The notes under the pieces are model-generated. The model saw only the letters and a program-made list of their open reading frames with translations, searched no databases and was not told the DNA's origin. Source: Leucoraja ocellata (Eukaryota). From it: 64,000 nt of DNA. The position numbers and the translations under genes were made by a program. Positions 1 through 57,394 of this stretch are shown in pieces (position 1 is the first letter of the stretch; every line of letters begins with the position of its first letter). Location: assembly GCA_036785375.1 (NCBI GenBank), contig JAWMAR010000081.1:8184001-8248000 (forward strand), given 5' to 3'.

Positions 1-3000
1 TTATGGATGTGATTTCTCCTGCTGGAGTTTGGGACATTGTCTCTCCTATAGTAATTTCAGAAGCCATCTCTCCAGCACTAGTTTGTGATGTTGTCTCTCC
101 TCCAGTAGAATGGGCCGTGCTCTCTCCTGCATTAATACTGGACGTTGTCTCTCCAGCAGTAGTATGCACTGTAGTCTCTCTTGATGTACTTTGGGACTGA
201 GTCTCCACTGTTGTACTTTGGGAGATCATCTCTACTGCAATAGTTTGGGAGGTGGTCTCACCTATGGCAGTTAGGGACATTGTCTCTCCTGTAGTAGATT
301 CAGATGAGATCTCAGGTGCAGTATTTTGGGATGTGGTCTCTACTGCTGTAGATTGGGACATAGTCTCTCCTGTTGTAGTTTTGAATGTGATCTCTTCAGT
401 TGAAGATTGGAACATGGTCTGTTCTACAGGAGTTTGGGATATTGTCACTACTGAAATAGTTTCAGATGTCAGCTCCTCTGTAGTAGCTTGGGCTGATGTC
501 ACTGGTGCAATTGTTTGGGTCGTGGTCTCTCCTGTGATAGATTGAGACATCATCTCTCCTGTTGTACTCTGGGACATGGTCTCTCCTGCAGTAGTTTGGG
601 ACAATGTCTGTCCTGTTGTAGGTTGAGATGTGGTCTCTCCTTCAGTAGGTATAGATGTGGTTTCTCCTGCAGGAGTTTGGGACATTGTCTCTCTTGTAGT
701 AGTTTTGGATGTCTTGTCACCAGCAGTAGTTTGAGATGTTCTCTCACCTCCAGTTGATTGGACCGTGCTCTCTCCTGCATTTGCTCTGGATGTGGACTCT
801 CCTGTAGTAGATTGAGCCGTTGTCTCTCCTGCTGTTCTCTGGGACATGGTCTCTCCTGCAGTAGTTTGCACTGTAGTCTCTCTTGATGTCTTTTGGGACT
901 GAGTCTCCACTGTTGTACTTTGGGACATCATCTCTACTGCAATAGTTTGAGAGATGGTCACACCTGTGGCAGTTAGGGACATTGTCTCTCCTGTAGTAGA
1001 TTCAGATGTGATCGCAGGTGCAGTATTTTGGGATGTTGTCTCTACTGCTGTAGATTGGGACATGGCCTGTCCTGTTGTAGTTTGGAATGTGGTCTCTTCA
1101 GTAGAAGATTGGAACATGGTCTGTTCTGCACTAGGTTCGGATGTTGTCACTACTGAACTAGTTTGGGACATTGTCTCTGCTGTAGTAATTTCAGATGTCA
1201 GCACTCCTGCAGTAGCTTGGGCCGTAGTCACAGGTGCAATTGTTTGGGTTGTGGTCTCTCCTGTAGTAGATTGAGACATCATCTCCCCTGTTGTAATTAC
1301 GGACATGGTCTCTCCTGTAGTAGTTTGGGACGCGGTCTCTCCTATGGTAGTTTTAGATGTGCTTTCTCCTTCAGTACTTTGCGAAATTATTTTTCCTGTT
1401 GTAGATTGGGACATGGTCTCTACTTCAATAGTTCGTGATGTAGTCACTTCTGCAGTAGTTGGAGACACGATCTCTCCTGTAGTAGTTTTTATCGTTGTCT
1501 CTCCTGCAGAAGTTTGGGCAGTGTTCTCTGCTGCAGTCGTTTCGGCCGTTGTCTCTCCTGCAGTAATTTGGGATATCGTCTGTCCTATTGTAGTTTGAGA
1601 CAAGCTCTCTTCTGTGATAGTTTGGGATGTTGTCGCACCTTCAGAAGTTTGGGATATGATCTCTCCTGCCGTAGTTTGAAACGATATCTGCCGTGTTGTA
1701 CGTTGGGATGTGGTCTCTCCTTCTGTGGTTATGGATGTGATTTCTCCTGCTGGAGTTTGGGACATTGTCTCTCCTATAGTAATTTCAGAAGCCATCTCTC
1801 CAGCACTAGTTTGTGATGTTGTCTCTCCTCCAGTAGAATGGGCCGTGCTCTCTCCTGCATTAATACTGGACGTTGTCTCTCCTGCAGTAGTATGTACTGT
1901 AGTCTCTCTTGATGTACTTTGGGACTGAGTCTCCACTGTTGTACTTTGGGAGATCATCTCTACTGCAATAGTTTGGGAGGTGGTCTCACCTATGGCAGTT
2001 AGGGACATTGTCTCTCCTGTAGTAGATTCAGATGTGATCGCAGGTGCATTATTTTGGGATGTTGTCTCTACTGCTGTAGATTGGGACATAGTCTCTCCTG
2101 TTGTAGTTTTGAATGTGGTCTCTTCAGTTGAAGATTGGAACATGGTCTGTTCTACAGGAGTTTGGGATATTGTCACTACTGAAATAGTTTCAGATGTCAG
2201 CTCCTCTGTAGTAGCTTGGGCTGATGTCACTGGTGCAATTGTTTGGGTCATGGTCTCTCCTGTGATAGATTGAGACATCATCTCTCCTGTTGTACTCTGG
2301 GACATGGTCTCTCCTGCAGTAGTTTGGGACAATGTCTGTCCTGTTGTAGGTTGAGATGTGTTCTCTCCTTCAGTAGGTATAGATGTGGTTTCTCCTGCAG
2401 GAGTTTGGGACATTGTCTCTCTTGTAGTAGTTTTGGATGTCTTGTCACCAGCAGTAGTTTGAGATGTTCTCTCACCTCCAGTTGATTGGACCGTGCTCTC
2501 TCCTGCATTTGCTCTGGATGTGGACTCTCCTGTAGTAGATTGAGCCGTTGTCTCTCCTGCTGTTCTCTGGGACATGGTCTCTCCTGCAGTTGTTTGCACT
2601 GTAGTCTCTCTTGATGTCTTTTGGGACTGAGTCTCCACTGTTGTACTTTGTGACATCATCTCTACTACAATAGTTTGAGAGATGGTCACACCTGTGGCAG
2701 TTAGGGACATTGTCTCTCCTGTAGTAGATTCAGATGTGATCGCAGGTGCAGTATTTTGGGATGTTGTCTCTACTGCTGTAGATTGGGACATAGTCTCTCC
2801 TGTTGTAGTTTTGAATGTGGTCTCTTCAGTAGAAGATTGGAACATGGTCTGTTCTGCACTAGGTTCGGATGTTGTCACTACTGAACTAGTTTGGGACATT
2901 GTCTCTGCTGTAGTAATTTCAGATGTCAGCACTCCTGCAGTAGCTTGGGCCGTAGTCACGGGTGCAATTGTTTGGGTTGTGGTCTCTCCTGTAGTAGATT

Positions 3001-6000
3001 GAGACATCATCTCCCCTGTTGTAATTACGGACATGGTCTCTCCTGTAGTAGTTTGGGACGCGGTCTCTCCTATGGTAATTTTAGATGTGCTTTCTCCTTC
3101 AGTACTTTGCGAAATTATTTTTCCTGTTGTAGATTGGGACATGGTCTCTACTTCAATAGTTCGTGATGTAGTCACTTCTGCAGTAGTTGGAGACACGATC
3201 TCTCCTGTAGTAGTTTTTATCGTTGTCTCTCCTGCAGAAGTTTGGGCAGTGTTCTCTGCTGCAGTCGTTTCGGCCGTTGTCTCTCCTGCAGTAATTTGGG
3301 ATATCGTCTGTCCTATTGTAGTTTGAGACAAGCTCTCTTCTGTGATAGTTTGGGATGTTGTCGCACCTTCAGAAGTTTGGGATATGATCTCTCCTGCCGT
3401 AGTTTGAAACGATATCTGCCGTGTTGTACGTTGGGATGTGGTCTCTCCTTCTGTGGTTATGGATGTGATTTCTCCTGCTGGAGTTTGGGACATTGTCTCT
3501 CCTATAGTAATTTCAGAAGCCATCTCTCCAGCACTAGTTTGTGATGTTGTCTCTCCTCCAGTAGAATGGGCCGTGCTCTCTCCTGCATTAATACTGGACG
3601 TTGTCTCTCCTGCAGTAGTATGTACTGTAGTCTCTCTTGATGTACTTTGGGACTGAGTCTCCACTGTTGTACTTTGGGAGATCATCTCTACTGCAATAGT
3701 TTGGGAGGTGGTCTCACCTATGGCAGTTAGGGACATTGTCTCTCCTGTAGTAGATTCAGATGTGATCGCAGGTGCATTATTTTGGGATGTTGTCTCTACT
3801 GCTGTAGATTGGGACATAGTCTCTCCTGTTGTAGTTTTGAATGTGGTCTCTTCAGTTGAAGATTGGAACATGGTCTGTTCTACAGGAGTTTGGGATATTG
3901 TCACTACTGAAATAGTTTCAGATGTCAGCTCCTCTGTAGTAGCTTGGGCTGATGTCACTGGTGCAATTGTTTGGGTCATGGTCTCTCCTGTGATAGATTG
4001 AGACATCATCTCTCCTGTTGTACTCTGGGACATGGTCTCTCCTGCAGTAGTTTGGGACAATGTCTGTCCTGTTGTAGGTTGAGATGTGTTCTCTCCTTCA
4101 GTAGGTATAGATGTGGTTTCTCCTGCAGGAGTTTGGGACATTGTCTCTCTTGTAGTAGTTTTGGATGTCTTGTCACCAGCAGTAGTTTGAGATGTTCTCT
4201 CACCTCCAGTTGATTGGACCGTGCTCTCTCCTGCATTTGCTCTGGATGTGGACTCTCCTGTAGTAGATTGAGCCGTTGTCTCTCCTGCTGTTCTCTGGGA
4301 CATGGTCTCTCCTGCAGTTGTTTGCACTGTAGTCTCTCTTGATGTCTTTTGGGACTGAGTCTCCACTGTTGTACTTTGTGACATCATCTCTACTACAATA
4401 GTTTGAGAGATGGTCACACCTGTGGCAGTTAGGGACATTGTCTCTCCTGTAGTAGATTCAGATGTGATCGCAGGTGCAGTATTTTGGGATGTTGTCTCTA
4501 CTGCTGTAGATTGGGACATAGTCTCTCCTGTTGTAGTTTTGAATGTGGTCTCTTCAGTAGAAGATTGGAACATGGTCTGTTCTGCACTAGGTTCGGATGT
4601 TGTCACTACTGAACTAGTTTGGGACATTGTCTCTGCTGTAGTAATTTCAGATGTCAGCACTCCTGCAGTAGCTTGGGCCGTAGTCACGGGTGCAATTGTT
4701 TGGGTTGTGGTCTCTCCTGTAGTAGATTGAGACATCATCTCCCCTGTTGTAATTACGGACATGGTCTCTCCTGTAGTAGTTTGGGACGCGGTCTCTCCTA
4801 TGGTAATTTTAGATGTGCTTTCTCCTTCAGTACTTTGCGAAATTATTTTTCCTGTTGTAGATTGGGACATGGTCTCTACTTCAATAGTTCGTGATGTAGT
4901 CACTTCTGCAGTAGTTGGAGACACGATCTCTCCTGTAGTAGTTTTTATCGTTGTCTCTCCTGCAGAAGTTTGGGCAGTGTTCTCTGCTGCAGTCGTTTCG
5001 GCCGTTGTCTCTCCTGCAGTAATTTGGGATATCGTCTGTCCTATTGTAGTTTGAGACAAGCTCTCTTCTGTGATAGTTTGGGATGTTGTCGCACCTTCAG
5101 AAGTTTGGGATATGATCTCTCCTGCCGTAGTTTGAAACGATATCTGCCGTGTTGTACGTTGGGATGTGGTCTCTCCTTCTGTGGTTATGGATGTGATTTC
5201 TCCTGCTGGAGTTTGGGACATTGTCTCTCCTATAGTAATTTCAGAAGCCATCTCTCCAGCACTAGTTTGTGATGTTGTCTCTCCTCCAGTAGAATGGGCC
5301 GTGCTCTCTCCTGCATTAATACTGGACGTTGTCTCTCCAGCAGTAGTATGCACTGTAGTCTCTCTTGATGTACTTTGGGACTGAGTCTCCACTGTTGTAC
5401 TTTGGGAGATCATCTCTACTGCAATAGTTTGGGAGGTGGTCTCACCTATGGCAGTTAGGGACATTGTCTCTCCTGTAGTAGATTCAGATGTGATCGCAGG
5501 TGCATTATTTTGGAATGTTGTCTCTACTGCTGTAGATTGGGACATAGTCTCTCCTGTTGTAGTTTTGAATGTGGTCTCTTCAGTTTGAGATTGGAACATG
5601 GTCTGTTCTACAGGAGTTTGGGATATTGTCACTACTGAAATAGTTTCAGATGTCAGCTCCTCTGTAGTAGCTTGGGCTGATGTCACTGGTGCAATTGTTT
5701 GGGTCATGGTCTCTCCTGTGATAGATTGAGACATCATCTCTCCTGTTGTACTCTGGGACATGGTCTCTCCTGCAGTAGTTTGGGACAATGTCTGTCCTGT
5801 TGTAGGTTGAGATGTGTTCTCTCCTTCAGTAGGTATAGATGTGGTTTCTCCTGCAGGAGTTTGGGACATTGTCTCTCTTGTAGTAGTTTTGGATGTCTTG
5901 TCACCAGCAGTAGTTTGAGATGTTCTCTCACCTCCAGTTGATTGGACCGTGCTCTCTCCTGCATTTGCTCTGGATGTGGACTCTCCTGTAGTAGATTGAG

Positions 6001-9000
6001 CCGTTGTCTCTCCTGCTGTTCTCTGGGACATGGTCTCTCCTGCAGTTGTTTGCACTGTAGTCTCTCTTGATGTCTTTTGGGACTGAGTCTCCACTGTTGT
6101 ACTTTGTGACATCATCTCTACTACAATAGTTTGAGAGATGGTCACACCTGTGGCAGTTAGGGACATTGTCTCTCCTGTAGTAGATTCAGATGTGATCGCA
6201 GGTGCAGTATTTTGGGATGTTGTCTCTACTGCTGTAGATTGGGACATAGTCTCTCCTGTTGTAGTTTTGAATGTGGTCTCTTCAGTAGAAGATTGGAACA
6301 TGGTCTGTTCTGCACTAGGTTCGGATGTTGTCACTACTGAACTAGTTTGGGACATTGTCTCTGCTGTAGTAATTTCAGATGTCAGCACTCCTGCAGTAGC
6401 TTGGGCCGTAGTCACGGGTGCAATTGTTTGGGTTGTGGTCTCTCCTGTAGTAGATTGAGACATCATCTCCCCTGTTGTAATTACGGACATGGTCTCTCCT
6501 GTAGTAGTTTGGGACGCGGTCTCTCCTATGGTAATTTTAGATGTGCTTTCTCCTTCAGTACTTTGCGAAATTATTTTTCCTGTTGTAGATTGGGACATGG
6601 TCTCTACTTCAATAGTTCGTGATGTAGTCACTTCTGCAGTAGTTGGAGACACGATCTCTCCTGTAGTAGTTTTTATCGTTGTCTCTCCTGCAGAAGTTTG
6701 GGCAGTGTTCTCTGCTGCAGTCGTTTCGGCCGTTGTCTCTCCTGCAGTAATTTGGGATATCGTCTGTCCTATTGTAGTTTGAGACAAGCTCTCTTCTGTG
6801 ATAGTTTGGGATGTTGTCGCACCTTCAGAAGTTTGGGATATGATCTCTCCTGCCGTAGTTTGAAACGATATCTGCCGTGTTGTACGTTGGGATGTGGTCT
6901 CTCCTTCTGTGGTTATGGATGTGATTTCTCCTGCTGGAGTTTGGGACATTGTCTCTCCTATAGTAATTTCAGAAGCCATCTCTCCAGCACTAGTTTGTGA
7001 TGTTGTCTCTCCTCCAGTAGAATGGGCCGTGCTCTCTCCTGCATTAATACTGGACGTTGTCTCTCCAGCAGTAGTATGCACTGTAGTCTCTCTTGATGTA
7101 CTTTGGGACTGAGTCTCCACTGTTGTACTTTGGGAGATCATCTCTACTGCAATAGTTTGGGAGGTGGTCTCACCTATGGCAGTTAGGGACATTGTCTCTC
7201 CTGTAGTAGATTCAGATGAGATCTCAGGTGCAGTATTTTGGGATGTGGTCTCTACTGCTGTAGATTGGGACATAGTCTCTCCTGTTGTAGTTTTGAATGT
7301 GATCTCTTCAGTTGAAGATTGGAACATGGTCTGTTCTACAGGAGTTTGGGATATTGTCACTACTGAAATAGTTTCAGATGTCAGCTCCTCTGTAGTAGCT
7401 TGGGCTGATGTCACTGGTGCAATTGTTTGGGTCGTGGTCTCTCCTGTGATAGATTGAGACATCATCTCTCCTGTTGTACTCTGGGACATGGTCTCTCCTG
7501 CAGTAGTTTGGGACAATGTCTGTCCTGTTGTAGGTTGAGATGTGGTCTCTCCTTCAGTAGGTATAGATGTGGTTTCTCCTGCAGGAGTTTGGGACATTGT
7601 CTCTCTTGTAGTAGTTTTGGATGTCTTGTCACCAGCAGTAGTTTGAGATGTTCTCTCACCTCCAGTTGATTGGACCGTGCTCTCTCCTGCATTTGCTCTG
7701 GATGTGGACTCTCCTGTAGTAGATTGAGCCGTTGTCTCTCCTGCTGTTCTCTGGGACATGGTCTCTCCTGCAGTAGTTTGCACTGTAGTCTCTCTTGATG
7801 TCTTTTGGGACTGAGTCTCCACTGTTGTACTTTGGGACATCATCTCTACTGCAATAGTTTGAGAGATGGTCACACCTGTGGCAGTTTGGGACATTGTCTC
7901 TTCTGTAGTAGTTTCAGATGCAATCTCTGGTGCAGTATTTTGGGATGCGGTCTCTACTGCTGTAGATTGCGACATGGCCTTTCCTGTTGTAGTTTGGAAT
8001 GTGGTCTCTTCAGTAGAAGATTGGAACATGGTCTGTTCTGCAGTAGGTTGGGATGTTGTCACTACTGAACTAGTTTGGGACATTGTCTCTGCTGTAGTAA
8101 TTTCAGATGTCAGCACTCCTGCAGTAGCTTGGGCCGTAGTCACGGGTGCAATTGTTTGGGTTGTGGTCTCTCCTGTAGTAGATTGAGACATCATCTCCCC
8201 TGTTGTAATTACGGACATGGTCTCTCCTGTAGTAGTTTGGGACGCGGTCTCTCCTATGGTAGTTTTAGATGTGCTTTCTCCTTCAGTACTTTGCGAAATT
8301 ATTTTTCCTGTTGTAGATTGGGACATGGTCTCTACTTCAATAGTTCGTGATGTAGTCACTTCTGCAGTAGTTGGAGACACGATCTCTCCTGTAGTAGTTT
8401 TTATCGTTGTCTCTCCTGCAGAAGTTTGGGCGGTGTTCTCTGCTGCAGTCGTTTCGGCCGTTGTCTCTCCTGCAGTAATTTGGGATATCGTCTGTCCTAT
8501 TGTAGTTTGAGACAAGCTCTCTTCTGTGATAGTTTGGGATGTTGTCGCACCTTCAGAAGTTTGGGATATGATCTCTCCTGCCGTAGTTTGAAACGATATC
8601 TGCCGTGTTGTACGTTGGGATGTGGTCTCTCCTTCTGTGGTTATGGATGTGATTTCTCCTGCTGGAGTTTGGGACATTGTCTCTCCTATAGTAATTTCAG
8701 AAGCCATCTCTCCAGCACTAGTTTGTGATGTTGTCTCTCCTCCAGTAGAATGGGCCGTGCTCTCTCCTGCATTAATACTGGACGTTGTCTCTCCAGCAGT
8801 AGTATGCACTGGTGCAATTGTTTGGGTCATGGTCTCTCCTGTGATAGATTGAGACATCATCTCTCCTGTTGTACTCTGGGACATGGTCTCTCCTGCAGTA
8901 GTTTGGGACAATGTCTGTCCTGTTGTAGGTTGAGATGTGTTCTCTCCTTCAGTAGGTATAGATGTGGTTTCTCCTGCAGGAGTTTGGGACATTGTCTCTC

Positions 9001-12000
9001 TTGTAGTAGTTTTGGATGTCTTGTCACCAGCAGTAGTTTGAGATGTTCTCTCACCTCCAGTTGATTGGACCGTGCTCTCTCCTGCATTTGCTCTGGACGT
9101 GGACTCTCCTGTAGTAGATTGAGCCGTTGTCTCTCCTGCTGTTCTCTGGGACATGGTCTCTCCTGCAGTTGTTTGCACTGTAGTCTCTCTTGATGTCTTT
9201 TGGGACTGAGTCTCCACTGTTGTACTTTGTGACATCATCTCTACTGCAATAGTTTGGGAGGTGGTCTCACCTGTGGCAGTTAGGGACATTGTCTCTCCTG
9301 TAGTAGATTCAGATGTGATCGCAGGTGCAGTATTTTGGGATGTTGTCTCTACTGCTGTAGATTGGGACACAGTCTCTCCTGTTGTAGTTTTGAATGTGGT
9401 CTCTTCAGTAGAAGATTGGAACATGGTCTGTTCTGCACTAGGTTCGGATGTTGTCACTACTGAACTAGTTTGGGACATTGTCTCTGCTGTAGTAATTTCA
9501 GATGTCAGCACTCCTGCAGTAGCTTGGGCCGTAGTCACAGGTGCAATTGTTTGGGTTGTGGTCTCTCCTGTAGTAGATTGAGACATCATCTCCCCTGTTG
9601 TAATTACGGACATGGTCTCTCCTGTAGTAGTTTGGGACGCGGTCTCTCCTATGGTAATTTTAGATGTGCTTTCTCCTTCAGTACTTTGCGAAATTATTTT
9701 TCCTGTTGTAGATTGGGACATGGTCTCTACTTCAATAGTTCGTGATGTAGTCACTTCTGCAGTAGTTGGAGACACGATCTCTCCTGTAGTAGTTTTTATC
9801 GTTGTCTCTCCTGCAGAAGTTTGGGCAGTGTTCTCTGCTGCAGTCGTTTCGGCCGTTGTCTCTCCTGCAGTAATTTGGGATATCGTCTGTCCTATTGTAG
9901 TTTGAGACAAGCTCTCTTCTGTGATAGTTTGGGATGTTGTCGCACCTTCAGAAGTTTGGGATATGATCTCTCCTGCCGTAGTTTGAAACGATATCTGCCG
10001 TGTTGTACGTTGGGATGTGGTCTCTCCTTCTGTGGTTATGGATGTGATTTCTCCTGCTGGAGTTTGGGACATTGTCTCTCCTATAGTAATTTCAGAAGCC
10101 ATCTCTCCAGCACTAGTTTGTGATGTTGTCTCTCCTCCAGTAGAATGGGCCGTGCTCTCTCCTGCATTAATACTGGACGTTGTCTCTCCAGCAGTAGTAT
10201 GCACTGTAGTCTCTCTTGATGTACTTTGGGACTGAGTCTCCACTGTTGTACTTTGGGAGATCATCTCTACTGCAATAGTTTGGGAGGTGGTCTCACCTAT
10301 GGCAGTTAGGGACATTGTCTCTCCTGTAGTAGATTCAGATGAGATCTCAGGTGCAGTATTTTGGGATGTGGTCTCTACTGCTGTAGATTGGGACATAGTC
10401 TCTCCTGTTGTAGTTTTGAATGTGATCTCTTCAGTTGAAGATTGGAACATGGTCTGTTCTACAGGAGTTTGGGATATTGTCACTACTGAAATAGTTTCAG
10501 ATGTCAGCTCCTCTGTAGTAGCTTGGGCTGATGTCACTGGTGCAATTGTTTGGGTCGTGGTCTCTCCTGTGATAGATTGAGACATCATCTCTCCTGTTGT
10601 ACTCTGGGACATGGTCTCTCCTGCAGTAGTTTGGGACAATGTCTGTCCTGTTGTAGGTTGAGATGTGGTCTCTCCTTCAGTAGGTATAGATGTGGTTTCT
10701 CCTGCAGGAGTTTGGGACATTGTCTCTCTTGTAGTAGTTTTGGATGTCTTGTCACCAGCAGTAGTTTGAGATGTTCTCTCACCTCCAGTTGATTGGACCG
10801 TGCTCTCTCCTGCATTTGCTCTGGATGTGGACTCTCCTGTAGTAGATTGAGCCGTTGTCTCTCCTGCTGTTCTCTGGGACATGGTCTCTCCTGCAGTAGT
10901 TTGCACTGTAGTCTCTCTTGATGTCTTTTGGGACTGAGTCTCCACTGTTGTACTTTGGGACATCATCTCTACTGCAATAGTTTGAGAGATGGTCACACCT
11001 GTGGCAGTTTGGGACATTGTCTCTTCTGTAGTAGTTTCAGATGCAATCTCTGGTGCAGTATTTTGGGATGTGGTCTCTACTGCTGTAGATTGCGACATGG
11101 CCTTTCCTGTTGTAGTTTGGAATGTGGTCTCTTCAGTAGAAGATTGGAACATGGTCTGTTCTGCAGTAGGTTGGGATGTTGTCACTACTGAACTAGTTTG
11201 GGACATTGTCTCTGCTGTAGTAATTTCAGATGTCAGCACTCCTGCAGTAGCTTGGGCCGTAGTCACGGGTGCAATTGTTTGGGTTGTGGTCTCTCCTGTA
11301 GTAGATTGAGACATCATCTCCCCTGTTGTAATTACGGACATGTTCTCTCCTGTAGTAGTTTGGGACGCGGTCTCTCCTATGGTAGTTTTAGATGTGCTTT
11401 CTCCTTCAGTACTTTGCGAAATTATTTTTCCTGTTGTAGATTGGGACATGGTCTCTACTTCAATAGTTCGTGATGTAGTCACTTCTGCAGTAGTTGGAGA
11501 CACGATCTCTCCTGTAGTAGTTTTTATCGTTGTCTCTCCTGCAGAAGTTTGGGCGGTGTTCTCTGCTGCAGTCGTTTCGGCCGTTGTCTCTCCTGCAGTA
11601 ATTTGGGATATCGTCTGTCCTATTGTAGTTTGAGACAAGCTCTCTTCTGTGATAGTTTGGGATGTTGTCGCACCTTCAGAAGTTTGGGATATGATCTCTC
11701 CTGCCGTAGTTTGAAACGATATCTGCCGTGTTGTACGTTGGGATGTGGTCTCTCCTTCTGTGGTTATGGATGTGATTTCTCCTGCTGGAGTTTGGGACAT
11801 TGTCTCTCCTATAGTAATTTCAGAAGCCATCTCTCCAGCACTAGTTTGTGATGTTGTCTCTCCTCCAGTAGAATGGGCCGTGCTCTCTCCTGCATTAATA
11901 CTGGACGTTGTCTCTCCAGCAGTAGTATGCACTGTGGTCTCTCTAGATGTACTTTGGGACTGAGTCTCCACTGTTGTACTTTGGGAGATCATCTCTACTG

Positions 12001-15000
12001 CAATAGTTTGGGAGGTGGTCTCACCTATGGCAGTTAGGGACATTGTCTCTCCTGTAGTAGATTCAGATGTGATCGCAGGTGCAGTATTTTGGGATGTGGT
12101 CTCTACTGCTGTAGATTGGGACATAGTCTCTCCTGTTGTAGTTTTGAATGTGATCTCTTCAGTTGAAGATTGGAACATGGTCTGTTCTACAGGAGTTTGG
12201 GATATTGTCACTACTGAAATAGTTTCAGATGTCAGCTCCTCTGTAGTAGCTTGGGCTGATGTCACTGGTGCAATTGTTTGGGTCATGGTCTCTCCTGTGA
12301 TAGATTGAGACATCATCTCTCCTGTTGTACTCTGGGACATGGTCTCTCCTGCAGTAGTTTGGGACAATGTCTGTCCTGTTGTAGGTTGAGATGTGTTCTC
12401 TCCTTCAGTAGGTATAGATGTGGTTTCTCCTGCAGGAGTTTGGGACATTGTCTCTCTTGTAGTAGTTTTGGATGTCTTGTCACCAGCAGTAGTTTGAGAT
12501 GTTCTCTCACCTCCAGTTGATTGGACCGTGCTCTCTCCTGCATTTGCTCTGGACGTGGACTCTCCTGTAGTAGATTGAGCCATTGTCTCTCCTGCTGTTC
12601 TCTGGGACATGGTCTCTCCTGCAGTTGTTTGCACTGTAGTCTCTCTTGATGTCTTTTGGGACTGAGTCTCCACTGTTGTACTTTGTGACATCATCTCTAC
12701 TACAATAGTTTGAGAGATGGTCACACCTGTGGCAGTTAGGGACATTGTCTCTCCTGTAGTAGATTCAGATGTGATCGCAGGTGCAGTATTTTGGGATGTT
12801 GTCTCTACTGCTGTAGATTGGGACATAGTCTCTCCTGTTGTAGTTTTGAATGTGGTCTCTTCAGTAGAAGATTGGAACATGGTCTGTTCTGCAGTAGGTT
12901 GGGATGTTGTCACTACTGAACTAGTTTGGGACATTGTCTCTGCTGTAGTAATTTCAGATGTCAGCACTCCTGCAGTAGCTTGGGCCGTAGTCACGGGTGC
13001 AATTGTTTGGGTTGTGGTCTCTCCTGTAGTAGATTGAGACATCATCTCCCCTGTTGTAATTACGGACATGGTCTCTCCTGTAGTAGTTTGGGACGCGGTC
13101 TCTCCTATGGTAATTTTAGATGTGCTTTCTCCTTCAGTACTTTGCGAAATGATTTTTCCTGTTGTAGATTGGGACATGGTCTCTACTTCAATAGTTCGTG
13201 ATGTAGTCACTTCTGCAGTAGTTGGAGACACGATCTCTCCTGTAGTAGTTTTTATCGTTGTCTCTCCTGCAGAAGTTTGGGCAGTGTTCTCTGCTGCAGT
13301 CGTTTCGGCCGTTGTCTCTCCTGCAGTAATTTGGGATATCGTCTGTCCTATTGTAGTTTGAGACAAGCTCTCTTCTGTGATAGTTTGGGATGTTGTCGCA
13401 CCTTCAGAAGTTTGGGATATGATCTCTCCTGCCGTAGTTTGAAACGATATCTGCCGTGTTGTACGTTGGGATGTGGTCTCTCCTTCTGTGGTTATGGATG
13501 TGATTTCTCCTGCTGGAGTTTGGGACATTGTCTCTCCTATAGTAATTTCAGAAGCCATCTCTCCAGCACTAGTTTGTGATGTTGTCTCTCCTCCAGTAGA
13601 ATGGGCCGTGCTCTCTCCTGCATTAATACTGGACGTTGTCTCTCCAGCAGTAGTATGCACTGTAGTCTCTCTTGATGTACTTTGGGACTGAGTCTCCACT
13701 GTTGTACTTTGGGAGATCATCTCTACTGCAATAGTTTGGGAGGTGGTCTCACCTATGGCAGTTAGGGACATTGTCTCTCCTGTAGTAGATTCAGATGAGA
13801 TCTCAGGTGCAGTATTTTGGGATGTGGTCTCTACTGCTGTAGATTGGGACATAGTCTCTCCTGTTGTAGTTTTGAATGTGATCTCTTCAGTTGAAGATTG
13901 GAACATGGTCTGTTCTACAGGAGTTTGGGATATTGTCACTACTGAAATAGTTTCAGATGTCAGCTCCTCTCTAGTAGCTTGGGCTGATGTCACTGGTGCA
14001 ATTGTTTGGGTCGTGGTCTCTCCTGTGATAGATTGAGACATCATCTCTCCTGTTGTACTCTGGGACATGGTCTCTCCTGCAGTAGTTTGGGACAATGTCT
14101 GTCCTGTTGTAGGTTGAGATGTGGTCTCTCCTTCAGTAGGTATAGATGTGGTTTCTCCTGCAGGAGTTTGGGACATTGTCTCTCTTGTAGTAGTTTTGGA
14201 TGTCTTGTCACCAGCAGTAGTTTGAGATGTTCTCTCACCTCCAGTTGATTGGACCGTGCTCTCTCCTGCATTTGCTCTGGATGTGGACTCTCCTGTAGTA
14301 GATTGAGCCGTTGTCTCTCCTGCTGTTCTCTGGGACATGGTCTCTCCTGCAGTAGTTTGCACTGTAGTCTCTCTTGATGTCTTTTGGGACTGAGTCTCCA
14401 CTGTTGTACTTTGGGACATCATCTCTACTGCAATAGTTTGAGAGATGGTCACACCTGTGGCAGTTTGGGACATTGTCTCTTCTGTAGTAGTTTCAGATGC
14501 AATCTCTGGTGCAGTATTTTGGGATGCGGTCTCTACTGCTGTAGATTGCGACATGGCCTTTCCTGTTGTAGTTTGGAATGTGGTCTCTTCAGTAGAAGAT
14601 TGGAACATGGTCTGTTCTGCAGTAGGTTGGGATGTTGTCACTACTGAACTAGTTTGGGACATTGTCTCTGCTGTAGTAATTTCAGATGTCAGCACTCCTG
14701 CAGTAGCTTGGGCCGTAGTCACAGGTGCAATTGTTTGGGTTGTGGTCTCTCCTGTAGTAGATTGAGACATCATCTCCCCTGTTGTAATTACGGACATGGT
14801 CTCTCCTGTAGTAGTTTGGGACGCGGTCTCTCCTATGGTAATTTTAGATGTGCTTTCTCCTTCAGTACTTTGCGAAATTATTTTTCCTGTTGTAGATTGG
14901 GACATGGTCTCTACTTCAATAGTTCGTGATGTAGTCACTTCTGCAGTAGTTGGAGACACGATCTCTCCTGTAGTAGTTTTTATCGTTGTCTCTCCTGCAG

Positions 15001-18000
15001 AAGTTTGGGCAGTGTTCTCTGCTGCAGTCGTTTCGGCCGTTGTCTCTCCTGCAGTAATTTGGGATATCGTCTGTCCTATTGTAGTTTGAGACAAGCTCTC
15101 TTCTGTGATAGTTTGGGATGTTGTCGCACCTTCAGAAGTTTGGGATATGATCTCTCCTGCCGTAGTTTGAAACGATATCTGCCGTGTTGTACGTTGGGAT
15201 GTGGTCTCTCCTTCTGTGGTTATGGATGTGATTTCTCCTGCTGGAGTTTGGGTCATTGTCTCTCCTATAGTAATTTCAGAAGCCATCTCTCCAGCACTAG
15301 TTTGTGATGTTGTCTCTCCTCCAGTAGAATGGGCCGTGCTCTCTCCTGCATTAATACTGGACGTTGTCTCTCCAGCAGCAGTATGCACTGTGGTCTCTCT
15401 AGATGTACTTTGGGACTGAGTCTCCACTGTTGTACTTTGGGAGATCATCTCTACTGCAATAGTTTGGGAGGTGGTCTCACCTATGGCAGTTAGGGACATT
15501 GTCTCTCCTGTAGTAGATTCAGATGTGATCGCAGGTGCAGTATTTTGGGATGTGGTCTCTACTGCTGTAGATTGGGACATAGTCTCTCCTGTTGTAGTTT
15601 TGAATGTCATCTCTTCAGTTGAAGATTGGAACATGGTCTGTTCTACAGGAGTTTGGGATATTGTCACTACTGAAATAGTTTCAGATGTCAGCTCCTCTGT
15701 AGTAGCTTGGGCTGAAGTCACTGGTGCAATTGTTTGGGTCATGGTCTCTCCTGTGATAGATTGAGACATCATCTCTCCTGTTGTACTCTGGGACATGGTC
15801 TCTCCTGCAGTAGTTTGGGACAATGTCTGTCCTGTTGTAGGTTGAGATGTGTTCTCTCCTTCAGTAGGTATAGATGTGGTTTCTCCTGCAGGAGTTTGGG
15901 ACATTGTCTCTCTTGTAGTAGTTTTGGATGTCTTGTCACCAGCAGTAGTTTGAGATGTTCTCTCACCTCCAGTTGATTGGACCGTGCTCTCTCCTGCATT
16001 TGCTCTGGACGTGGACTCTCCTGTAGTAGATTGAGCCGTTGTCTCTCCTGCTGTTCTCTGGGACATGGTCTCTCCTGCAGTTGTTTGCACTGTAGTCTCT
16101 CTTGATGTCTTTTGGGACTGAGTCTCCACTGTTGTACTTTGTGACATCATCTCTACTACAATAGTTTGAGAGATGGTCACACCTGTGGCAGTTAGGGATA
16201 TTGTCTCTCCTGTAGTAGATTCAGATGTGATCGCAGGTGCAGTATTTTGGGATGTTGTCTCTACTGCTGTAGATTGGGACATAGTCTCTCCTGTTGTAGT
16301 TTTGAATGTGGTCTCTTCAGTAGAAGATTGGAACATGGTCTGTTCTGCACTAGGTTCGGATGTTGTCACTACTGAACTAGTTTGGGACATTGTCTCTGCT
16401 GTAGTAATTTCAGATGTCAGCACTCCTGCAGTAGCTTGGGCCGTAGTCACGGGTGCAATTGTTTGGGTTGTGGTCTCTCCTGTAGTAGATTGAAACATCA
16501 TCTCCCCTGTTGTAATTACGGACATGGTCTCTCCTGTAGTAGTTTGGGATGCGGTCTCTCCTATGGTAATTTTAGATGTGCTTTCTCCTTCAGTACTTTG
16601 CGAAATTATTTTTCCTGTTGTAGATTGGGACATGGTCTCTACTTCAATAGTTCGTGATGTAGTCACTTCTGCAGTAGTTGGAGACACGATCTCTCCTGTA
16701 GTAGTTTTTATCGTTGTCTCTCCTGCAGAAGTTTGGGCAGTGTTCTCTGCTGCAGTCGTTTCGGCCGTTGTCTCTCCTGCAGTAATTTGGGATATCGTCT
16801 GTCCTATTGTAGTTTGAGAAAAGCTCTCTTCTGTGATAGTTTGGGATGTTGTCGCACCTTCAGAAGTTTGGGATATGATCTCTCCTGCCGTAGTTTGAAA
16901 CGATATCTGCCGTGTTGTACGTTGGGATGTGGTCTCTCCTTCTGTGGTTATGGATGTGATTTCTCCTGCTGGAGTTTGGGACATTGTCTCTCCTATAGTA
17001 ATTTCAGAAGCCATCTCTCCAGCACTAGTTTGTGATGTTGTCTCTCCTCCAGTAGAATGGGCCGTGCTCTCTCCTGCATTAATACTGGACGTTGTCTCTC
17101 CAGCAGTAGTATGCACTGTAGTCTCTCTTGATGTACTTTGGGACTGAGTCTCCACTGTTGTACTTTGGGAGATCATCTCTACTGCAATAGTTTGGGAGGT
17201 GGTCTCACCTATGGCAGTTAGGGACATTGTCTCTCCTGTAGTAGATTCAGATGAGATCTCAGGTGCAGTATTTTGGGATGTGGTCTCTACTGCTGTAGAT
17301 TGGGACATAGTCTCTCCTGTTGTAGTTTTGAATGTGATCTCTTCAGTTGAAGATTGGAACATGGTCTGTTCTACAGGAGTTTGGGATATTGTCACTACTG
17401 AAATAGTTTCAGATGTCAGCTCCTCTGTAGTAGCTTGGGCTGATGTCACTGGTGCAATTGTTTGGGTCGTGGTCTCTCCTGTGATAGATTGAGACATCAT
17501 CTCTCCTGTTGTACTCTGGGACATGGTCTCTCCTGCAGTAGTTTGGGACAATGTCTGTCCTGTTGTAGGTTGAGATGTGGTCTCTCCTTCAGTAGGTATA
17601 GATGTGGTTTCTCCTGCAGGAGTTTGGGACATTGTCTCTCTTGTAGTAGTTTTGGATGTCTTGTCACCAGCAGTAGTTTGAGATGTTCTCTCACCTCCAG
17701 TTGATTGGACCGTGCTCTCTCCTGCATTTGCTCTGGATGTGGACTCTCCTGTAGTAGATTGAGCCGTTGTCTCTCCTGCTGTTCTCTGGGACATGGTCTC
17801 TCCTGCAGTAGTTTGCACTGTAGTCTCTCTTGATGTCTTTTGGGACTGAGTCTCCAATGTTGTACTTTGGGACATCATCTCTACTGCAATAGTTTGAGAG
17901 ATGGTCACACCTGTGGCAGTTTGGGACATTGTCTCTTCTGTAGTAGTTTCAGATGCAATCTCTGGTGCAGTATTTTGGGATGCGGTCTCTACTGCTGTAG

Positions 18001-21000
18001 ATTGCGACATGGCCTTTCCTGTTGTAGTTTGGAATGTGGTCTCTTCAGTAGAAGATTGGAACATGGTCTGTTCTGCAGTAGGTTGGGATGTTGTCACTAC
18101 TGAACTAGTTTGGGACATTGTCTCTGCTGTAGTAATTTCAGATGTCAGCACTCCTGCAGTAGCTTGGGCCGTAGTCACGGGTGCAATTGTTTGGGTTGTG
18201 GTCTCTCCTGTAGTAGATTGAGACATCATCTCCCCTGTTGTAATTACGGACATGGTCTCTCCTGTAGTAGTTTGGGACGCGGTCTCTCCTATGGTAGTTT
18301 TAGATGTGCTTTCTCCTTCAGTACTTTGCGAAATTATTTTTCCTGTTGTAGATTGGGACATGGTCTCTACTTCAATAGTTCGTGATGTAGTCACTTCTGC
18401 AGTAGTTGGAGACACGATCTCTCCTGTAGTAGTTTTTATCATTGTCTCTCCTGCAGAAGTTTGTGCGGTGTTCTCTGCTGCAGTAGTTTCGGTCGTTGTC
18501 TCTCCTGCAGTAATTTGGGATATCGTCTGCCCTATTGTAGTTTGAGACAAGCTCTTTTCTGTGATAGTTTGGGATGTTGTCGCACCTTCAGAAGTTTGGG
18601 ATATGATCTCTCCTGCCGTAGTTTGAAACGATATCTGCCGTGTTGTACGTTGGGATGTGGTCTCTCCTTCTGTGGTTATGGATATGATTTCTCCTGCTGG
18701 AGTTTGGGACATTGTCTCTCCTATAGTAATTTCAGAAGCCATCTCTCCAGCACTAGTTTGTGATGTTGTCTCTCCTCCAGTAGAATGGGCCGTGCTCTCT
18801 CCTGCATTAATACTGGACGTTGTCTCTCCAGCAGTAGTATGCACTGTGGTCTCTCTAGATGTACTTTGGGACTGAGTCTCCACTGTTGTACTTTGGGAGA
18901 TCATCTCTACTGCAATAGTTTGGGAGGTGGTCTCACCTATGGCAGTTAGGGACATTGTCTCTCCTGTAGTAGATTCAGATGTGATCGCAGGTGCAGTATT
19001 TTGGGATGTGGTCTCTACTGCTGTAGATTGGGACATAGTCTCTCCTGTTGTAGTTTTGAATGTGATCTCTTCAGTTGAAGATTGGAACATGGTCTGTTCT
19101 ACAGGAGTTTGGGATATTGTCACTACTGAAATAGTTTCAGATGTCAGCTCCTCTGTAGTAGCTTGGGCTGATGTCACTGGTGCAATTGTTTGGGTCATGG
19201 TCTCTCCTGTGATAGATTGAGACATCATCTCTCCTGTTGTACTCTGGGACATGGTCTCTCCTGCAGTAGTTTGGGACAATGTCTGTCCTGTTGTAGGTTG
19301 AGATGTGTTCTCTCCTTCAGTAGGTATAGATGTGGTTTCTCCTGCAGGAGTTTGGGACATTGTCTCTCTTGTAGTAGTTTTGGATGTCTTGTCACCAGCA
19401 GTAGTTTGAGATGTTCTCTCACCTCCAGTTGATTGGACCGTGCTCTCTCCTGCATTTGCTCTGGACGTGGACTCTCCTATAGTAAATTGAGCCGTTGTCT
19501 CTCCTGCTGTTCTCTGGGACATGGTCTCTCCTGCAGTAGTTTGCACTGTAGTCTCATTTGATGTCTTTTGGGACTGAGTCTCCACTGTTGTACTTTGGGA
19601 CATCATCTCTTCTGCAATAGTTTGAGAGATGGTCACACCTGTGGCAGTTTGGGACATTGTCTCTCCTGTAGTAGTTTCAGATGTAATCTCTGGTGCAGTA
19701 TTTTGGGATGCGGTCTCTACTGCTGTAGATTGCGAACTGGTCTCTCCTGTTGTAGTTTGGAATGTGGCCTCTTCAGTAGAAGATTGGAACATGGTCTGTT
19801 CTGCAGTAGGTTGGGATGTTGTCACTACTGAACTAGTTTGGGACATTGTCTCTGCTGTAGTAATTTCAGATGTCAGCACTCCTGCAGTAGCTTGGGCCGT
19901 AGTCACGGGTGCAATTGTTTGGGTTGTGGTCTCTCCTGTAGTAGATTGAAACATCATCTCCCCTGTTGTAATTACGGACATGGTCTCTCCTGTAGTAGTT
20001 TGGGACGCGGTCTCTCCTATGGTAGTTTTAGATGTGCTTTCTTCTTCAGTACTTTGGGAAATTATTTTTCCTGTTGTAGGTTGGGACATGGTCTCTACTT
20101 CAATAGTTCGTGATGTAGTCTCTTCTGCAGTAGTTGGAGACACGATCTCTCCTGTAGTAGTTTTTATTGTTGTCTCTCCTGCAGAAGTTTGGGCGGTGTT
20201 CTCTGCTGCAGTAGTTTCGGCCGTTGTCTCTCCTGCAGTAATTTGGGATATCGTCTGTCCTATTGTAGTTTCAGACAAGCTCTCTTCTGTGATAGTTTGG
20301 GATGTTGTCGCACCTTCAGAAGTTTGGGATATGATCTCTCCTGCCGTAGTTTGAAACGATGTCTGCCGTGTTGTACGTTGGGATGTGGTCTCTCCTTCTG
20401 TGGTTATGGATGTGATTTCTCCTGCTGGAGTTTGGGACATTGTCTCTCCTATAGTAATTTCAGAAGCCATCTCTCCAGCACTAGTTTGTGATGTTGTCTC
20501 TCCTCCAGTAGAATGGGCCGTGCTCTCTCCTGCATTAATACTGGACGTTGTCTCTCCAGCAGTAGTATGCACTGTAGTCTCTCTTGATGTACTTTGGGAC
20601 TGAGTCTCCACTGTTGTACTTTGGGAGATCATCTCTACTGCAATAGTTTGGGAGGTGGTCTCACCTATGGCAGTTAGGGACATTGTCTCTCCTGTAGTAG
20701 ATTCAGATGTGATCTCAGATGCAGTATTTTGGGATGTGGTCTCTACTGCTGTAGATTGGGACATAGTCTCTCCTGTTGTAGTTTTGAATGTGATCTCTTC
20801 AGTTGAAGATTGGAACTTGGTCTGTTCTACAGGAGTTTGGGATATTGTCACTACTGAAATAGTTTCAGATGTCAGCTCCTCTGTAGTTGCTTGGGCTGAT
20901 GTCACTGGTGCAATTGTTTGGGTCATGGTCTCACCTGTGATAGATTGAGACATCATCTCTCCTGTTGTACTCTGGGACATGGTCTCTCCTGCAGTAGTTT

Positions 21001-23800
21001 GGGACAATGTCTGTCCTGTTGTAGGTTGAGATGTGTTCTCTCCTTCAGTAGGTATAGATGTGGTTTCTCCTGCAGGAGTTTGGGACATTGTCTCTCTTGT
21101 AGTTGTTTTGGATGTCTTGTCACCAGCAGTAGTTTGAGATGTTCTCTCACCTCCAGTTGATTGGACCGTGCTCTCTCCTGCATTTGCTCTGGACGTGGAC
21201 TCTCCTGTAGTAAATTGAGCCGTTGTCTCTCCTGCTGTTCTCTGGGACATGGTCTCTCCTGCAGTAGTTTGCACTGTAGTCTCATTTGATGTCTTTTGGG
21301 ACTGAGTCTCCACTGTTGTACTTTGGGACATCATCTCTACTGCAATAGTTTGAGAGATGGTCACACCTGTGGCAGTTTGGGACATTGTCTCTCCTGTAGT
21401 AGTTTCAGATGCAATCTCTGGTGCAGTATTTTGGGATGCGGTCTCTACTGCTGTAGATTGCGACATGGTCTCTCCTGTTGTAGTTTGGAATGTGGCCTCT
21501 TCAGTAGAAGATTGGAACATGGTCTGTTCTGCAGTAGGTTGGGATGTTGTTACTACTGAACTAGTTTGGGACATTGTCTCTGCTGTAGTAATTTCAGATG
21601 TCAGCACTCCTGCAGTAGCTTGGGCCGTAGTCACGGGTGCAATTGTTTGGGCTGTGGTCTCTCCTGTAGTAGATTGAAACATCATCTCCCCTGTTGTAAT
21701 TACGGACATGGTCTCTCCTGTAGTAGTTTGGGATGCGGTCTCTCCTGTGGTAATTTTAGATGTGCTTTCTTCTTCAGTACTTTGGGAAATTATTTTTCCT
21801 GTTGTAGGTTGGGACATGGTCTCTACTTCAATAGTTCGTGATGTAGTCTCTTCTGCAGTAGTTGGAGACACGATCTCTCCTGTAGTAGTTTTTATCGTTG
21901 TCTCTCCTGCAGAAGTTTGGGCGGTGTTCTCTGCTGCAGTAGTTTCGGCCGTTGTCTCTCCTGCAGTAATTTGGGATATCGTCTGTCCTATTGTAGTTTC
22001 AGACAAGCTCTCTTCTGTGATAGTTTGGGATGTTGTCGCACCTTCAGAAGTTTGGGATATGATCTCTCCTGCCGTAGTTTGAAACGATGTCTGCCGTGTT
22101 GTACGTTGGGATGTGGTCTCTCCTTCTGTGGTTATGGATGTGATTTCTCCTGCTGGAGTTTGGGACATTGTCTCTCCTATAGTAATTTCAGAAGCCATCT
22201 CTCCAGCACTAGTTTGTGATGTTGTCTCTCCTCCAGTAGAATGGGCCGTGCTCTCTCCTGCATTAATACTGGACGTTGTCTCTCCAGCAGTAGTATGCAC
22301 TGTAGTCTCTCTTGATGTACTTTGGGACTGAGTCTCCACTGTTGTACTTTGGGAGATCATCTCTACTGCAATAGTTTGGGAGGTGGTCTCACCTATGGCA
22401 GTTAGGGACATTGTCTCTCCTGTAGTAGATTCAGATGTGATCTCAGATGCAGTATTTTGGGATGTGGTCTCTACTGCTGTAGATTGGGACATAGTCTCTC
22501 CTGTTGTAGTTTTGAATGTGATCTCTTCAGTTGAAGATTGGAACTTGGTCTGTTCTACAGGAGTTTGGGATATTGTCACTACTGAAATAGTTTCAGATGT
22601 CAGCTCCTCTGTAGTTGCTTGGGCTGATGTCACTGGTGCAATTGTTTGGGTCATGGTCTCACCTGTGATAGATTGAGACATCATCTCTCCTGTTGTACTC
22701 TGGGACATGGTCTCTCCTGCAGTAGTTTGGGACAATGTCTGTCCTGTTGTAGGTTGAGATGTGTTCTCTCCTTCAGTAGGTATAGATGTGGTTTCTCCTG
22801 CAGGAGTTTGGGACATTGTCTCTCTTGTAGTTGTTTTGGATGTCTTGTCACCAGCAGTAGTTTGAGATGTTCTCTCACCTCCAGTTGATTGGACCGTGCT
22901 CTCTCCTGCATTTGCTCTGGACGTGGACTCTCCTGTAGTAAATTGAGCCGTTGTCTCTCCTGCTGTTCTCTGGGACATGGTCTCTCCTGCAGTAGTTTGC
23001 ACTGTAGTCTCATTTGATGTCTTTTGGGACTGAGTCTCCACTGTTGTACTTTGGGACATCATCTCTACTGCAATAGTTTGAGAGATGGTCACACCTGTGG
23101 CAGTTTGGGACATTGTCTCTCCTGTAGTAGTTTCAGATGCAATCTCTGGTGCAGTATTTTGGGATGCGGTCTCTACTGCTGTAGATTGCGACATGGTCTC
23201 TCCTGTTGTAGTTTGGAATGTGGCCTCTTCAGTAGAAGATTGGAACATGGTCTGTTCTGCAGTAGGTTGGGATGTTGTTACTACTGAACTAGTTTGGGAC
23301 ATTGTCTCTGCTGTAGTAATTTCAGATGTCAGCACTCCTGCAGTAGCTTGGGCCGTAGTCACGGGTGCAATTGTTTGGGTTGTGGTCTCTCCTGTAGTAG
23401 ATTGAAACATCATCTCCCCTGTTGTAATTACGGACATGGTCTCTCCTGTAGTAGTTTGGGATGCGGTCTCTCCTGTGGTAATTTTAGATGTGCTTTCTTC
23501 TTCAGTACTTTGGGAAATTATTTTTCCTGTTGTAGATTGGGACATGGTCTCTACTTCAATAGTTCGTGATGTAGTCTCTTCTGCAGTAGTTGGAGACATG
23601 ATCTCTCCTGTAGTAGCTTTTATCGTTGTCTCTCCTGCAGAAGTTTGGGCGGTGTTCTCTGCTGCAGTAGTTTCGGCCGTTCTCTCTCCTGCAGTAATTT
23701 GGGATATCGTCTGTCTTATTGTAGTTTGAGACAAGCTCTCTTCTGTGATACTTTGGGATGTTGTCGCACCTTCAGAAGTTTGGGATATGATCTCTCCTGC
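1..23800 (-). repeat. Higher-order tandem repeat, 1,728-bp unit (64 x 27 bp; 576 aa), about 14 near-identical copies
   Basis: Near-identical shadow ORFs recur at 1710, 3438, 5166, 6894, 8622, then 10017 (+1395), 11745, 13473, 15201, 16929, 18657, 20385 and 22113. Confidence 0.96.
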
Positions 23801-57390: not shown

Positions 57391-57394
57391 CTCC

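What the first reader, a model, noticed from the sequence alone, without database searches (positions are those of the whole stretch)
1..23800. Satellite-like nested hierarchy inside a coding exon: 27 bp -> 702/1,026 bp halves -> 1,728 bp -> 3,456 bp
Seen: the 1,728-bp unit equals 64 x 27 bp and is itself a dimer of diverged halves (homologous blocks at 252 and 954, 702 bp = 26 monomers apart). Inference: this is a higher-order-repeat architecture like centromeric alpha satellite, but constrained to stay in frame. It yields a 576-aa protein repeat, much longer than typical mucin VNTR units.
Basis: seen in the sequence. Interest (0 to 1): 0.72.

Follow-up and report, generated by a model that had tools for sequence, protein, structure and literature searches.

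The report
Nested repeats in giant mucin-like exon
A giant mucus-protein-like coding stretch in a vertebrate grew by copying ever larger blocks of a 9-amino-acid repeat, leaving old-to-young layers like those of centromere DNA while staying readable as protein; nested coding repeats are known, but this is an unusually large and legible example.

Summary
Mostly real. Bases 1-23,800 hold 14 units of 1,728 bp (64 in-phase 27-bp monomers; monomers 65% alike, units 97-100%). They lie in a minus-strand ORF of at least 47.9 kb (15,974 codons, no stop; Thr+Ser 44%).

Two corrections. The halves are 648 and 1,080 bp, a 24-mer and a 40-mer; 702/1,026 is only the offset of their best-kept 320-bp block. 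The 3,456-bp level is local: four pairs at about 5.2-18.7 kb.

Also, 13 of 19 fixed differences that create the 3,456 level sit in one 110-bp tract that looks gene-converted from the 24-mer into the 40-mer.

Stops and cysteine are absent, while amino-acid changes are near neutral (pN/pS 0.8-0.9). Best reading: ordinary satellite-type turnover filtered only for frame and composition, in a mucin-like PTS exon. The gene family and expression are unproven, and no close protein relative was found. It works like an alpha-satellite HOR but is not one. Spider-silk genes and giant human mucin exons are precedents.

The parts
2..47901 (-). Giant open reading frame, inferred single coding exon of at least 47,900 bp; runs off the window start, so the 3' end and C-terminal domains are unseen
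   Evidence: Stop-to-stop ORF 2-47,923, 15,974 aa, 0 stops; phase-1 acceptor with pyrimidine tract, first exon base 47,901, alternative at 47,895
1..23800 (-). Young array: 14 units of 1,728 bp (64 x 27 bp; 576 aa), 97-100% identical; 89 variable columns
581..1660 (-). Subunit B, 1,080 bp = 40 monomers (first whole copy); 1,310-1,660 has no partner in A
1661..2308 (-). Subunit A, 648 bp = 24 monomers (first whole copy); a copy of B lacking 54, 27 and 351 bp; 82-93% identical to B
5185..18675 (-). Local 3,456-bp level: units 4-11 alternate type Y and type X (four pairs)
2703..2812 (-). Example (unit 2) of the 110-bp tract at unit positions 975-1,084 where Y-type B subunits carry A alleles; inferred gene conversion; same tract in units 3, 4, 6, 8, 10 and partly 1
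   Evidence: 9 of 10 diagnostic sites are A-like in Y units, 0-1 of 10 in X and Z units; 13 of 19 fixed X/Y differences lie here; older copies mostly share X/Z alleles
8807..8811 (.). Junction of a 333-bp (111-aa) deletion in unit 6; 5-bp microhomology; in frame but out of monomer phase
18676..23800 (-). Units 12-14 (type Z), the units next to the older layer; 1.7-3.0% different from units 1-11
23801..30600 (-). Older layer: about 7-8 decayed, variably deleted tandem copies of the 40-mer, blocks 80-91% identical to B; one copy carries the same 54-bp deletion as A (25,146/25,147); the farthest two or three copies approach background
30601..38900 (-). Monomeric layer of the same 27-bp family with no large unit; nearest-paralogue identity 0.72-0.74
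39000..47360 (-). Second, more decayed 27-bp family with Pro in place of Gln/Gly (Pro 7.6% over the first 3,000 aa); nearest-paralogue identity 0.65-0.67
62297..62345 (-). Candidate first coding exon: ATG, 16 codons with a hydrophobic core, phase-1 GTAAGT donor matching the phase-1 acceptor at 47,901 (14,395-bp intron); tentative
   Evidence: (2nd of 20 candidates by hydrophobicity)

Best explanation
This is the Thr/Ser-rich (PTS-type) exon of a very large secreted or membrane mucin-like glycoprotein of a vertebrate. Its hierarchy is a by-product of repeat turnover, not a designed protein architecture. Inferred order: (1) a 27-bp monomer array formed and diverged to about 65% identity; (2) a 40-monomer, 1,080-bp block was duplicated several times by unequal exchange, and the copies decayed and lost pieces (23.8-30.6 kb); (3) one full copy plus a neighbouring deleted 24-monomer copy were amplified together as the 1,728-bp unit, at least 14 times; (4) a roughly 110-bp conversion from A into B, with a few other changes, made a second unit type, and an X+Y pair was amplified four times as 3,456 bp. 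Selection removes stops, frameshifts and probably cysteines and keeps Thr+Ser near 44%, but hardly constrains individual residues. The product would be an extended, acidic, O-glycosylated bottle-brush whose length matters more than its sequence. SHOWN: the periods, subunit alignment, layers, tract, and stop depletion. INFERRED: the order of events, the recombination mechanism, splicing, expression, glycosylation and mucin function.
For: Age gradient: median nearest-paralogue identity 1.0 (1-23.8 kb), 0.905, 0.885, 0.794 (to 30.6 kb), 0.72-0.74 (to 38.9 kb), 0.65-0.67 (to 47.6 kb); Spearman -0.67 over 23.8-38.7 kb, with tiles that are not independent. Collinear 40-mer copies flank the array, and one shares A's 54-bp deletion; that copy (O2) is sister to the A clade with FastTree support 0.86. 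Conversion tract. In the 702-offset core, 11 of 38 A/B-differing sites are polymorphic, all 11 with the partner's allele, against 36 of 556 other sites (Fisher p = 6e-5). Stop purge: in 30.6-38.9 kb the three stop neighbours of the consensus Gln, Gly and Glu codons occur 0 times, while the six other changes at the same positions occur 91 times. Phase-aware independent-site expectations are 9.0, 6.2 and 14.0 stops in the three older layers, observed 0. pN/pS is 0.79-0.89 in the young array and 0.79-0.90 in the older layer. Thr+Ser is 42-46% throughout, with 0 Cys in 15,966 aa.
Against: No RNA or protein evidence. No relative found: three word-indexed searches gave nothing, and the full HMMER search gave only 27 weak hits, 17-44% identity, best E 6e-20. 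No Pfam family on three exon pieces, and no informative Atlas hit (best 0.83, recognition low). Proline in the array is 1.9%, below the >5% often seen in PTS domains. The exon-1 candidate is one of 20 and ranks second. The conversion-tract limits were chosen after seeing the variants; some partner-allele sites could be retained ancestral alleles, and old copies do not match X/Z at every tract site. The tree rests on 319 bp with recombining copies. pN/pS is only weakly below 1 (p 0.03-0.34 depending on the transition weight).
Confidence: 0.75

Rival explanations
1. The 576-aa unit is itself selected, as a periodic glycan, charge or binding pattern, like the homogenised aggregates proposed to matter in spider silk.
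For: Units are 97-100% identical; monomer columns keep strong residue preferences; only one large deletion among 14 units.
Against: pN/pS 0.79-0.90; the 111-aa deletion breaks monomer phase; older copies lost varied pieces; no Cys and no Pfam family in the unit. High identity is what recent amplification gives anyway.
Confidence: 0.1
2. The upper levels (unit number, X/Y alternation) are assembly artefacts, such as haplotype switching or collapsed or expanded copies.
For: Units 2 and 3 are identical, with a 2,260-bp exact run at lag 1,728; no reads were available.
Against: 89 variable columns with many unit-private alleles and three nested unit types; strict four-fold alternation with 19 fixed differences; no frameshift in 47.9 kb; type Z sits beside the old layer and B of types X and Z shares its alleles.
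Confidence: 0.1
3. It is a non-coding satellite or pseudo-exon whose frame is open only because the 27-bp consensus lacks a stop.
For: No expression data and no homologue; amino-acid change is near neutral.
Against: 0 stops across 24 kb of monomers diverged by about 30%, where 29 are expected phase-aware (9.0 + 6.2 + 14.0); 19 of 19 phase shifts are multiples of 3; the frame is also open through the weakly periodic start of the ORF, up to a phase-matched acceptor.
Confidence: 0.03

Closest known systems
Human tethered mucins MUC3A/MUC3B/MUC12/MUC17 (7q22)
   Same: One giant PTS-coding exon of tandem repeats early in the gene: MUC3B exon 2 is 39,267 bp with 549 17-aa repeats plus imperfect repeats (PMC9578598, passages); MUC12 reaches 23,080 aa with a 55,233-bp size range (PMC13345508, passages and section 7). 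Degenerate repeats at array edges are noted in about half of human mucins.
   Different: No sequence relative was found; the array is Pro-poor (1.9%) and acidic (Asp+Glu 12%); SEA, EGF and transmembrane parts are unseen. The passages I read describe no nested 40-mer/64-mer/128-mer ladder; I did not read the whole texts or their supplements.
Spider dragline silk genes MaSp1/MaSp2
   Same: In-frame motif, ensemble and aggregate hierarchy in one huge exon: MaSp1 has a ~120-aa aggregate iterated 20 times at 97.5% nucleotide identity; MaSp2 has a 778-aa tandem pair at >99.7% (PMC1885213, passages). Ensemble units change by gain or loss of whole subunits, with gene conversion between paralogues (PMC9779670, passages).
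   Different: Gly/Ala fibroins, not Thr/Ser-rich; exons of 9-11 kb; 3-7 subunits per ensemble against 64 monomers here.
Primate alpha-satellite higher-order repeats
   Same: Diverged monomers inside near-identical HORs, with older layers pushed outwards: monomeric, transition, HOR (PMC8099727, passages). Local small HOR patterns also occur in maize (PMC13011684, abstract).
   Different: 171-bp non-coding monomers, megabase arrays, centromere chromatin, mirror symmetry. Here: 27-bp coding monomers, 24 kb, one flank seen.
MUC5B super-repeat and MUC6 169-aa unit; NBPF/Olduvai triplets
   Same: Large repeat units in or spanning coding DNA: MUC6 has 24 units mostly of 507 bp (PMC6269512, passages); the MUC5B super-repeat was seen only as a reference title in that paper; NBPF 3-mer HORs (PMC11675761, abstract).
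   Different: MUC5B units include CysD domains (none here: 0 Cys). NBPF monomers are about 1.6 kb; that they include introns is recalled, not checked.

Membership tests
Higher-order repeat architecture (works-like claim) | Monomers within a unit far more diverged than units from each other | tested here: met
   0.647 mean monomer identity against 97-100% between units
Higher-order repeat architecture (works-like claim) | Older, more diverged layers flank the homogeneous core | tested here: met
   One side only:
Higher-order repeat architecture (works-like claim) | Mirror symmetry of layers on both sides | not testable with these tools
   The array runs off the window start
Alpha satellite (membership) | 171-bp non-coding monomer | tested here: not met
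   27-bp monomer in a 15,974-codon ORF
Alpha satellite (membership) | Centromere chromatin (CENP-A) | not testable with these tools
   No chromatin data
Mucin PTS domain | Thr+Ser at least 40% (PMC4948705) | tested here: met
   42.0-45.7% across three segments; 44.1% in the unit
Mucin PTS domain | Pro often above 5% (PMC4948705) | tested here: inconclusive
   7.6% in the first 3,000 aa, but 1.6-1.9% in the rest, including the array
Mucin PTS domain | Encoded by one large tandem-repeat exon | tested here: inconclusive
   47.9-kb ORF and acceptor site; splicing not shown
Mucin PTS domain | Dense O-glycosylation | not testable with these tools
   Needs protein
Gel-forming mucins of the MUC2/5AC/5B type | CysD domains within the central exon | tested here: not met
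   0 Cys in 15,966 aa
Gel-forming mucins (MUC2/5AC/5B/6/19) | N-terminal VWD-C8-TIL exons upstream of the PTS exon | tested here: inconclusive
   Pfam on 10 of the 21 minus-strand ORFs in 47.9-64 kb (all those of 99 aa or more) found only RVT_1; shorter exons or exons beyond 64,000 would be missed
Tethered mucins (MUC3/12/17, MUC4, MUC22 type) | Short signal-peptide exon directly before the PTS exon | tested here: inconclusive
   Phase-compatible candidate at 62,297-62,345, 2nd of 20; no signal-peptide predictor was available
Tethered mucins (MUC3/12/17, MUC4, MUC22 type) | C-terminal SEA/EGF and transmembrane segment | not testable with these tools
   Lies beyond the window start
Spidroins | Gly/Ala-rich motifs with poly-Ala | tested here: not met
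   Gly 6.9%, Ala 7.5%, Thr 29.5%

The most novel reading that the evidence does not exclude
An undescribed vertebrate mucin-like gene carries one of the longest coding exons known outside human MUC12 alleles (at least 47.9 kb, end unseen). It preserves a complete centromere-style layered expansion in frame (monomers, decayed 40-mers, 64-mer, 128-mer), with the newest level born largely from a single conversion between subunits. Every base has a codon context, so it would be a natural system for measuring how HORs arise when selection on frame and stops can be counted. It would also imply that mucin length is driven by the same core-outward turnover as satellites.
Probability: 0.4. Interest if true: 0.62.

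Novelty: new variant of a known kind. Interest (0 to 1): 0.45.

Why it matters
If the assembly is right, it shows satellite-type higher-order repeat birth step by step inside coding DNA, including the precursor copies and the event that started the next level. Neutral models of HOR origin become testable in a 40-kb locus rather than in megabase centromeres. It also marks a very large mucin-like gene that public protein sets seem to lack. The ingredients (giant mucin exons, nested coding repeats in silk genes, layered satellites) are each published, so this is a clear example rather than a new principle.

Tried and rejected
Homologue searches that found nothing: the unit against proteins of 1,009-2,880 aa (7,998 candidates scored); residues 3,000-4,200 of a 9,299-aa piece against 5,114-16,274 aa (507 candidates); the N-terminal 1,500 aa against 1,375-4,375 aa at E up to 1 (7,995 candidates). 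Composition correction and the length windows make these blanks weak evidence. The full HMMER search gave 27 weak hits; they are unnamed and may be human mucin-like sequences, so their identity stays unchecked. Atlas on the unit was uninformative. Pfam found nothing on three exon pieces. Rfam found nothing in 47.9-64 kb.

Rejected: '702/1,026 halves'; '3,456 across the whole array'; raw autocorrelation as evidence for 3,456, because it is a harmonic and is distorted by the 333-bp deletion. The naive stop expectations (50-200 per layer) ignore monomer phase and were replaced by phase-aware ones. The single 'stop' allele is a per-column artefact of a two-base change; the real codon is Gln. Long plus-strand ORFs such as 40,542-44,312 were treated as antisense shadows and not searched.

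No fold or complex was run, since the sequence is low-complexity, has no alignment, and would most likely be disordered.

Literature: ten searches returned no paper describing this gene or an HOR-type analysis of a mucin exon. The library lacks most subscription papers, and no supplements were read, so absence from print is not established.
Full report
VERDICT. The nested repeat is real and lies in a giant open reading frame.

1. PERIODS. Autocorrelation over 1-23,800 is 0.624 at lag 27, 0.927 at 1,728, 0.683 at 702 and 0.675 at 1,026; a base shuffle gives about 0.27. A phase model finds one shift in 1-23,800, at about 8,806, so each unit is 64 monomers in unbroken phase. The shift is a 333-bp deletion with 5 bases of microhomology at 8,807-8,811, in frame but not a multiple of 27. 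The array ends near 23,800 and holds 13.97 units. Units differ by 0-3.0% at 89 variable columns. Monomers within a unit average 0.647 identity, and 63 of 64 are distinct.

2. INSIDE THE UNIT. It is one block of a longer chain. A 648-bp 24-mer (A; 1,661-2,308) aligns end to end with the first 729 bp of a 1,080-bp 40-mer (B; 581-1,660) in blocks of 207 bp (82%), 320 bp (93%) and 121 bp (86%), at offsets 648/1,080, 702/1,026 and 729/999. The last 351 bp of B are single. So 1,728 = 1,080 + 648.

3. THE 3,456 LEVEL. Units 5, 7, 9, 11 (X) and 2, 3, 4, 6, 8, 10 (Y) form two types; unit 1 is a mosaic; units 12-14 (Z) are a third type. Lag-2 difference beats lag-1 only from about 5.2 to 18.7 kb (0.1-0.7% against 1.6-2.5%). 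Permutation p is 0.075 for all 14 units and 0.007 for units 4-11, a subset chosen afterwards. Of 19 fixed X/Y differences, 13 lie in a 110-bp tract, 6% of the unit. At the 10 tract sites where unit 13's B differs from its A, Y units carry the A allele at 9, X units at 0-1 and unit 1 at 7; on either side of the tract the counts are about 2 of 13 and 2 of 10 in nearly all units 1-11. Older flanking copies mostly carry the X/Z alleles, so Y is the derived state. I infer a conversion from A into B. The tract limits were set by eye.

4. LAYERS. From 23.8 to 30.6 kb the sequence follows the 40-mer collinearly through about 7-8 copies with varied deletions, at 80-91% identity; the farthest copies approach background. 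One copy has the same 54-bp deletion as A, at 25,146/25,147, and is sister to the A clade (support 0.86, 319-bp alignment). It looks like a preserved intermediate. Beyond 30.6 kb the same monomers show no large unit, and from 39 kb a second, Pro-containing 27-bp family takes over. Median nearest-paralogue identity falls from 1.0 through 0.905, 0.885, 0.794 and 0.72-0.74 to 0.65-0.67. The gene reads on the minus strand, so the oldest layers are N-terminal. The far side is outside the window.

5. CODING CONSTRAINT. The ORF 2-47,923 has 15,974 codons and no stop; the other five frames have 213-1,671. All 19 phase shifts at the stricter penalty are multiples of 3; at the looser one 20 of 22 are. 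In the monomeric layer the stop neighbours of the consensus Gln, Gly and Glu codons occur 0 times against 91 for the six other changes at those positions, although the Gln-to-stop change is a transition. Phase-aware expectations total 29 stops in the three older layers; monomers are related, so these are not exact probabilities. pN/pS is 0.79-0.90. Thr+Ser is 42-46%, Asp+Glu 10-12%, Cys 0, and Pro 7.6% in the first 3,000 aa but under 2% afterwards. Frame and composition are protected; residue order largely is not.

6. THE GENE. A phase-1 acceptor lies at 47,901. A 49-base ATG exon with a hydrophobic core and a GTAAGT donor at 62,345-62,297 is phase-compatible, but it is one of 20 candidates and ranks second by hydrophobicity. 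Pfam on 10 of 21 upstream minus-strand ORFs found only a reverse transcriptase at 52,107-52,586, whose Atlas neighbours are mostly eukaryotic, commonest Chordata in 2 of the top 3. The flank reminds me of cartilaginous-fish CR1/SINE repeats; that is recalled and untested. No protein relative was found. The layout resembles tethered mucins, but the family cannot be assigned without the C-terminus.

7. MECHANISM. Most likely (0.75): unequal exchange amplified successively larger in-phase blocks, conversion between subunits created new unit types, and selection removed only frame-breaking or composition-breaking products. The function inferred from composition is an extended O-glycosylated brush. 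Rivals: selection on the 576-aa unit (0.10), assembly artefact in the upper levels (0.10), non-coding accident (0.03).

8. COMPARISON. It works like an alpha-satellite HOR with layered flanks (PMC8099727, passages) but is not alpha satellite. Nested in-frame repeats in one exon are known from spider MaSp1/MaSp2 (PMC1885213, passages; PMC9779670, passages). Giant mucin exons are known: MUC3B 39,267 bp (PMC9578598, passages) and MUC12 up to 23,080 aa (PMC13345508, passages and section 7). MUC6 has 169-aa units (PMC6269512, passages). PTS criteria come from PMC4948705 (passages). PMC13011684 and PMC11675761 were seen as abstracts only. Ten searches found no description of this gene or of such a ladder in a mucin. 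Subscription papers and supplements were not seen and may hold one, for MUC12 especially.

9. SCORE. New variant of a known kind; interest 0.45. The parts are familiar. The size, the 64-monomer unit, and the visible record from monomer to dimer of units are unusual and make a good test case.

Noticed in passing
window 39,000-47,360 (-): A second 27-bp monomer family (Pro/Ala instead of Gln/Gly) in the same frame, with its own old internal duplications (exact 20-mers recurring at lags near 921, 837 and 471 around 41-44 kb); 0 stops against 14 expected.
   Followed up: partly
window unit position 402-403 of unit 4 (about 5,586-5,587): One unit changes a Ser codon to Gln by two adjacent substitutions; one of the two alone would give a stop.
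   Followed up: partly
window about 1,351-3,610: 2,260-bp exact run at lag 1,728; units 2 and 3 are identical. Either the newest duplication or an assembly collapse/expansion.
   Followed up: no
window unit 6, about 9,246-9,267: The A-like tract extends further in unit 6 (three more A alleles at unit positions 950-960), the same unit that carries the 333-bp deletion.
   Followed up: partly
window 51,700-53,300 (-) and 57,247-57,870 (-): Decayed LINE-like sequence in the presumed intron; RVT_1 hit at 52,107-52,586. The CR1 label is recalled, not tested.
   Followed up: partly
window 40,542-44,312 (+): 1,256-codon antisense ORF over the second monomer family, with many shorter ones nearby; probably a shadow of the coding strand.
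   Followed up: no
window 39,556-39,608: Short 21-bp (7-aa) near-perfect duplication that breaks the 27-bp phase but keeps the frame.
   Followed up: no
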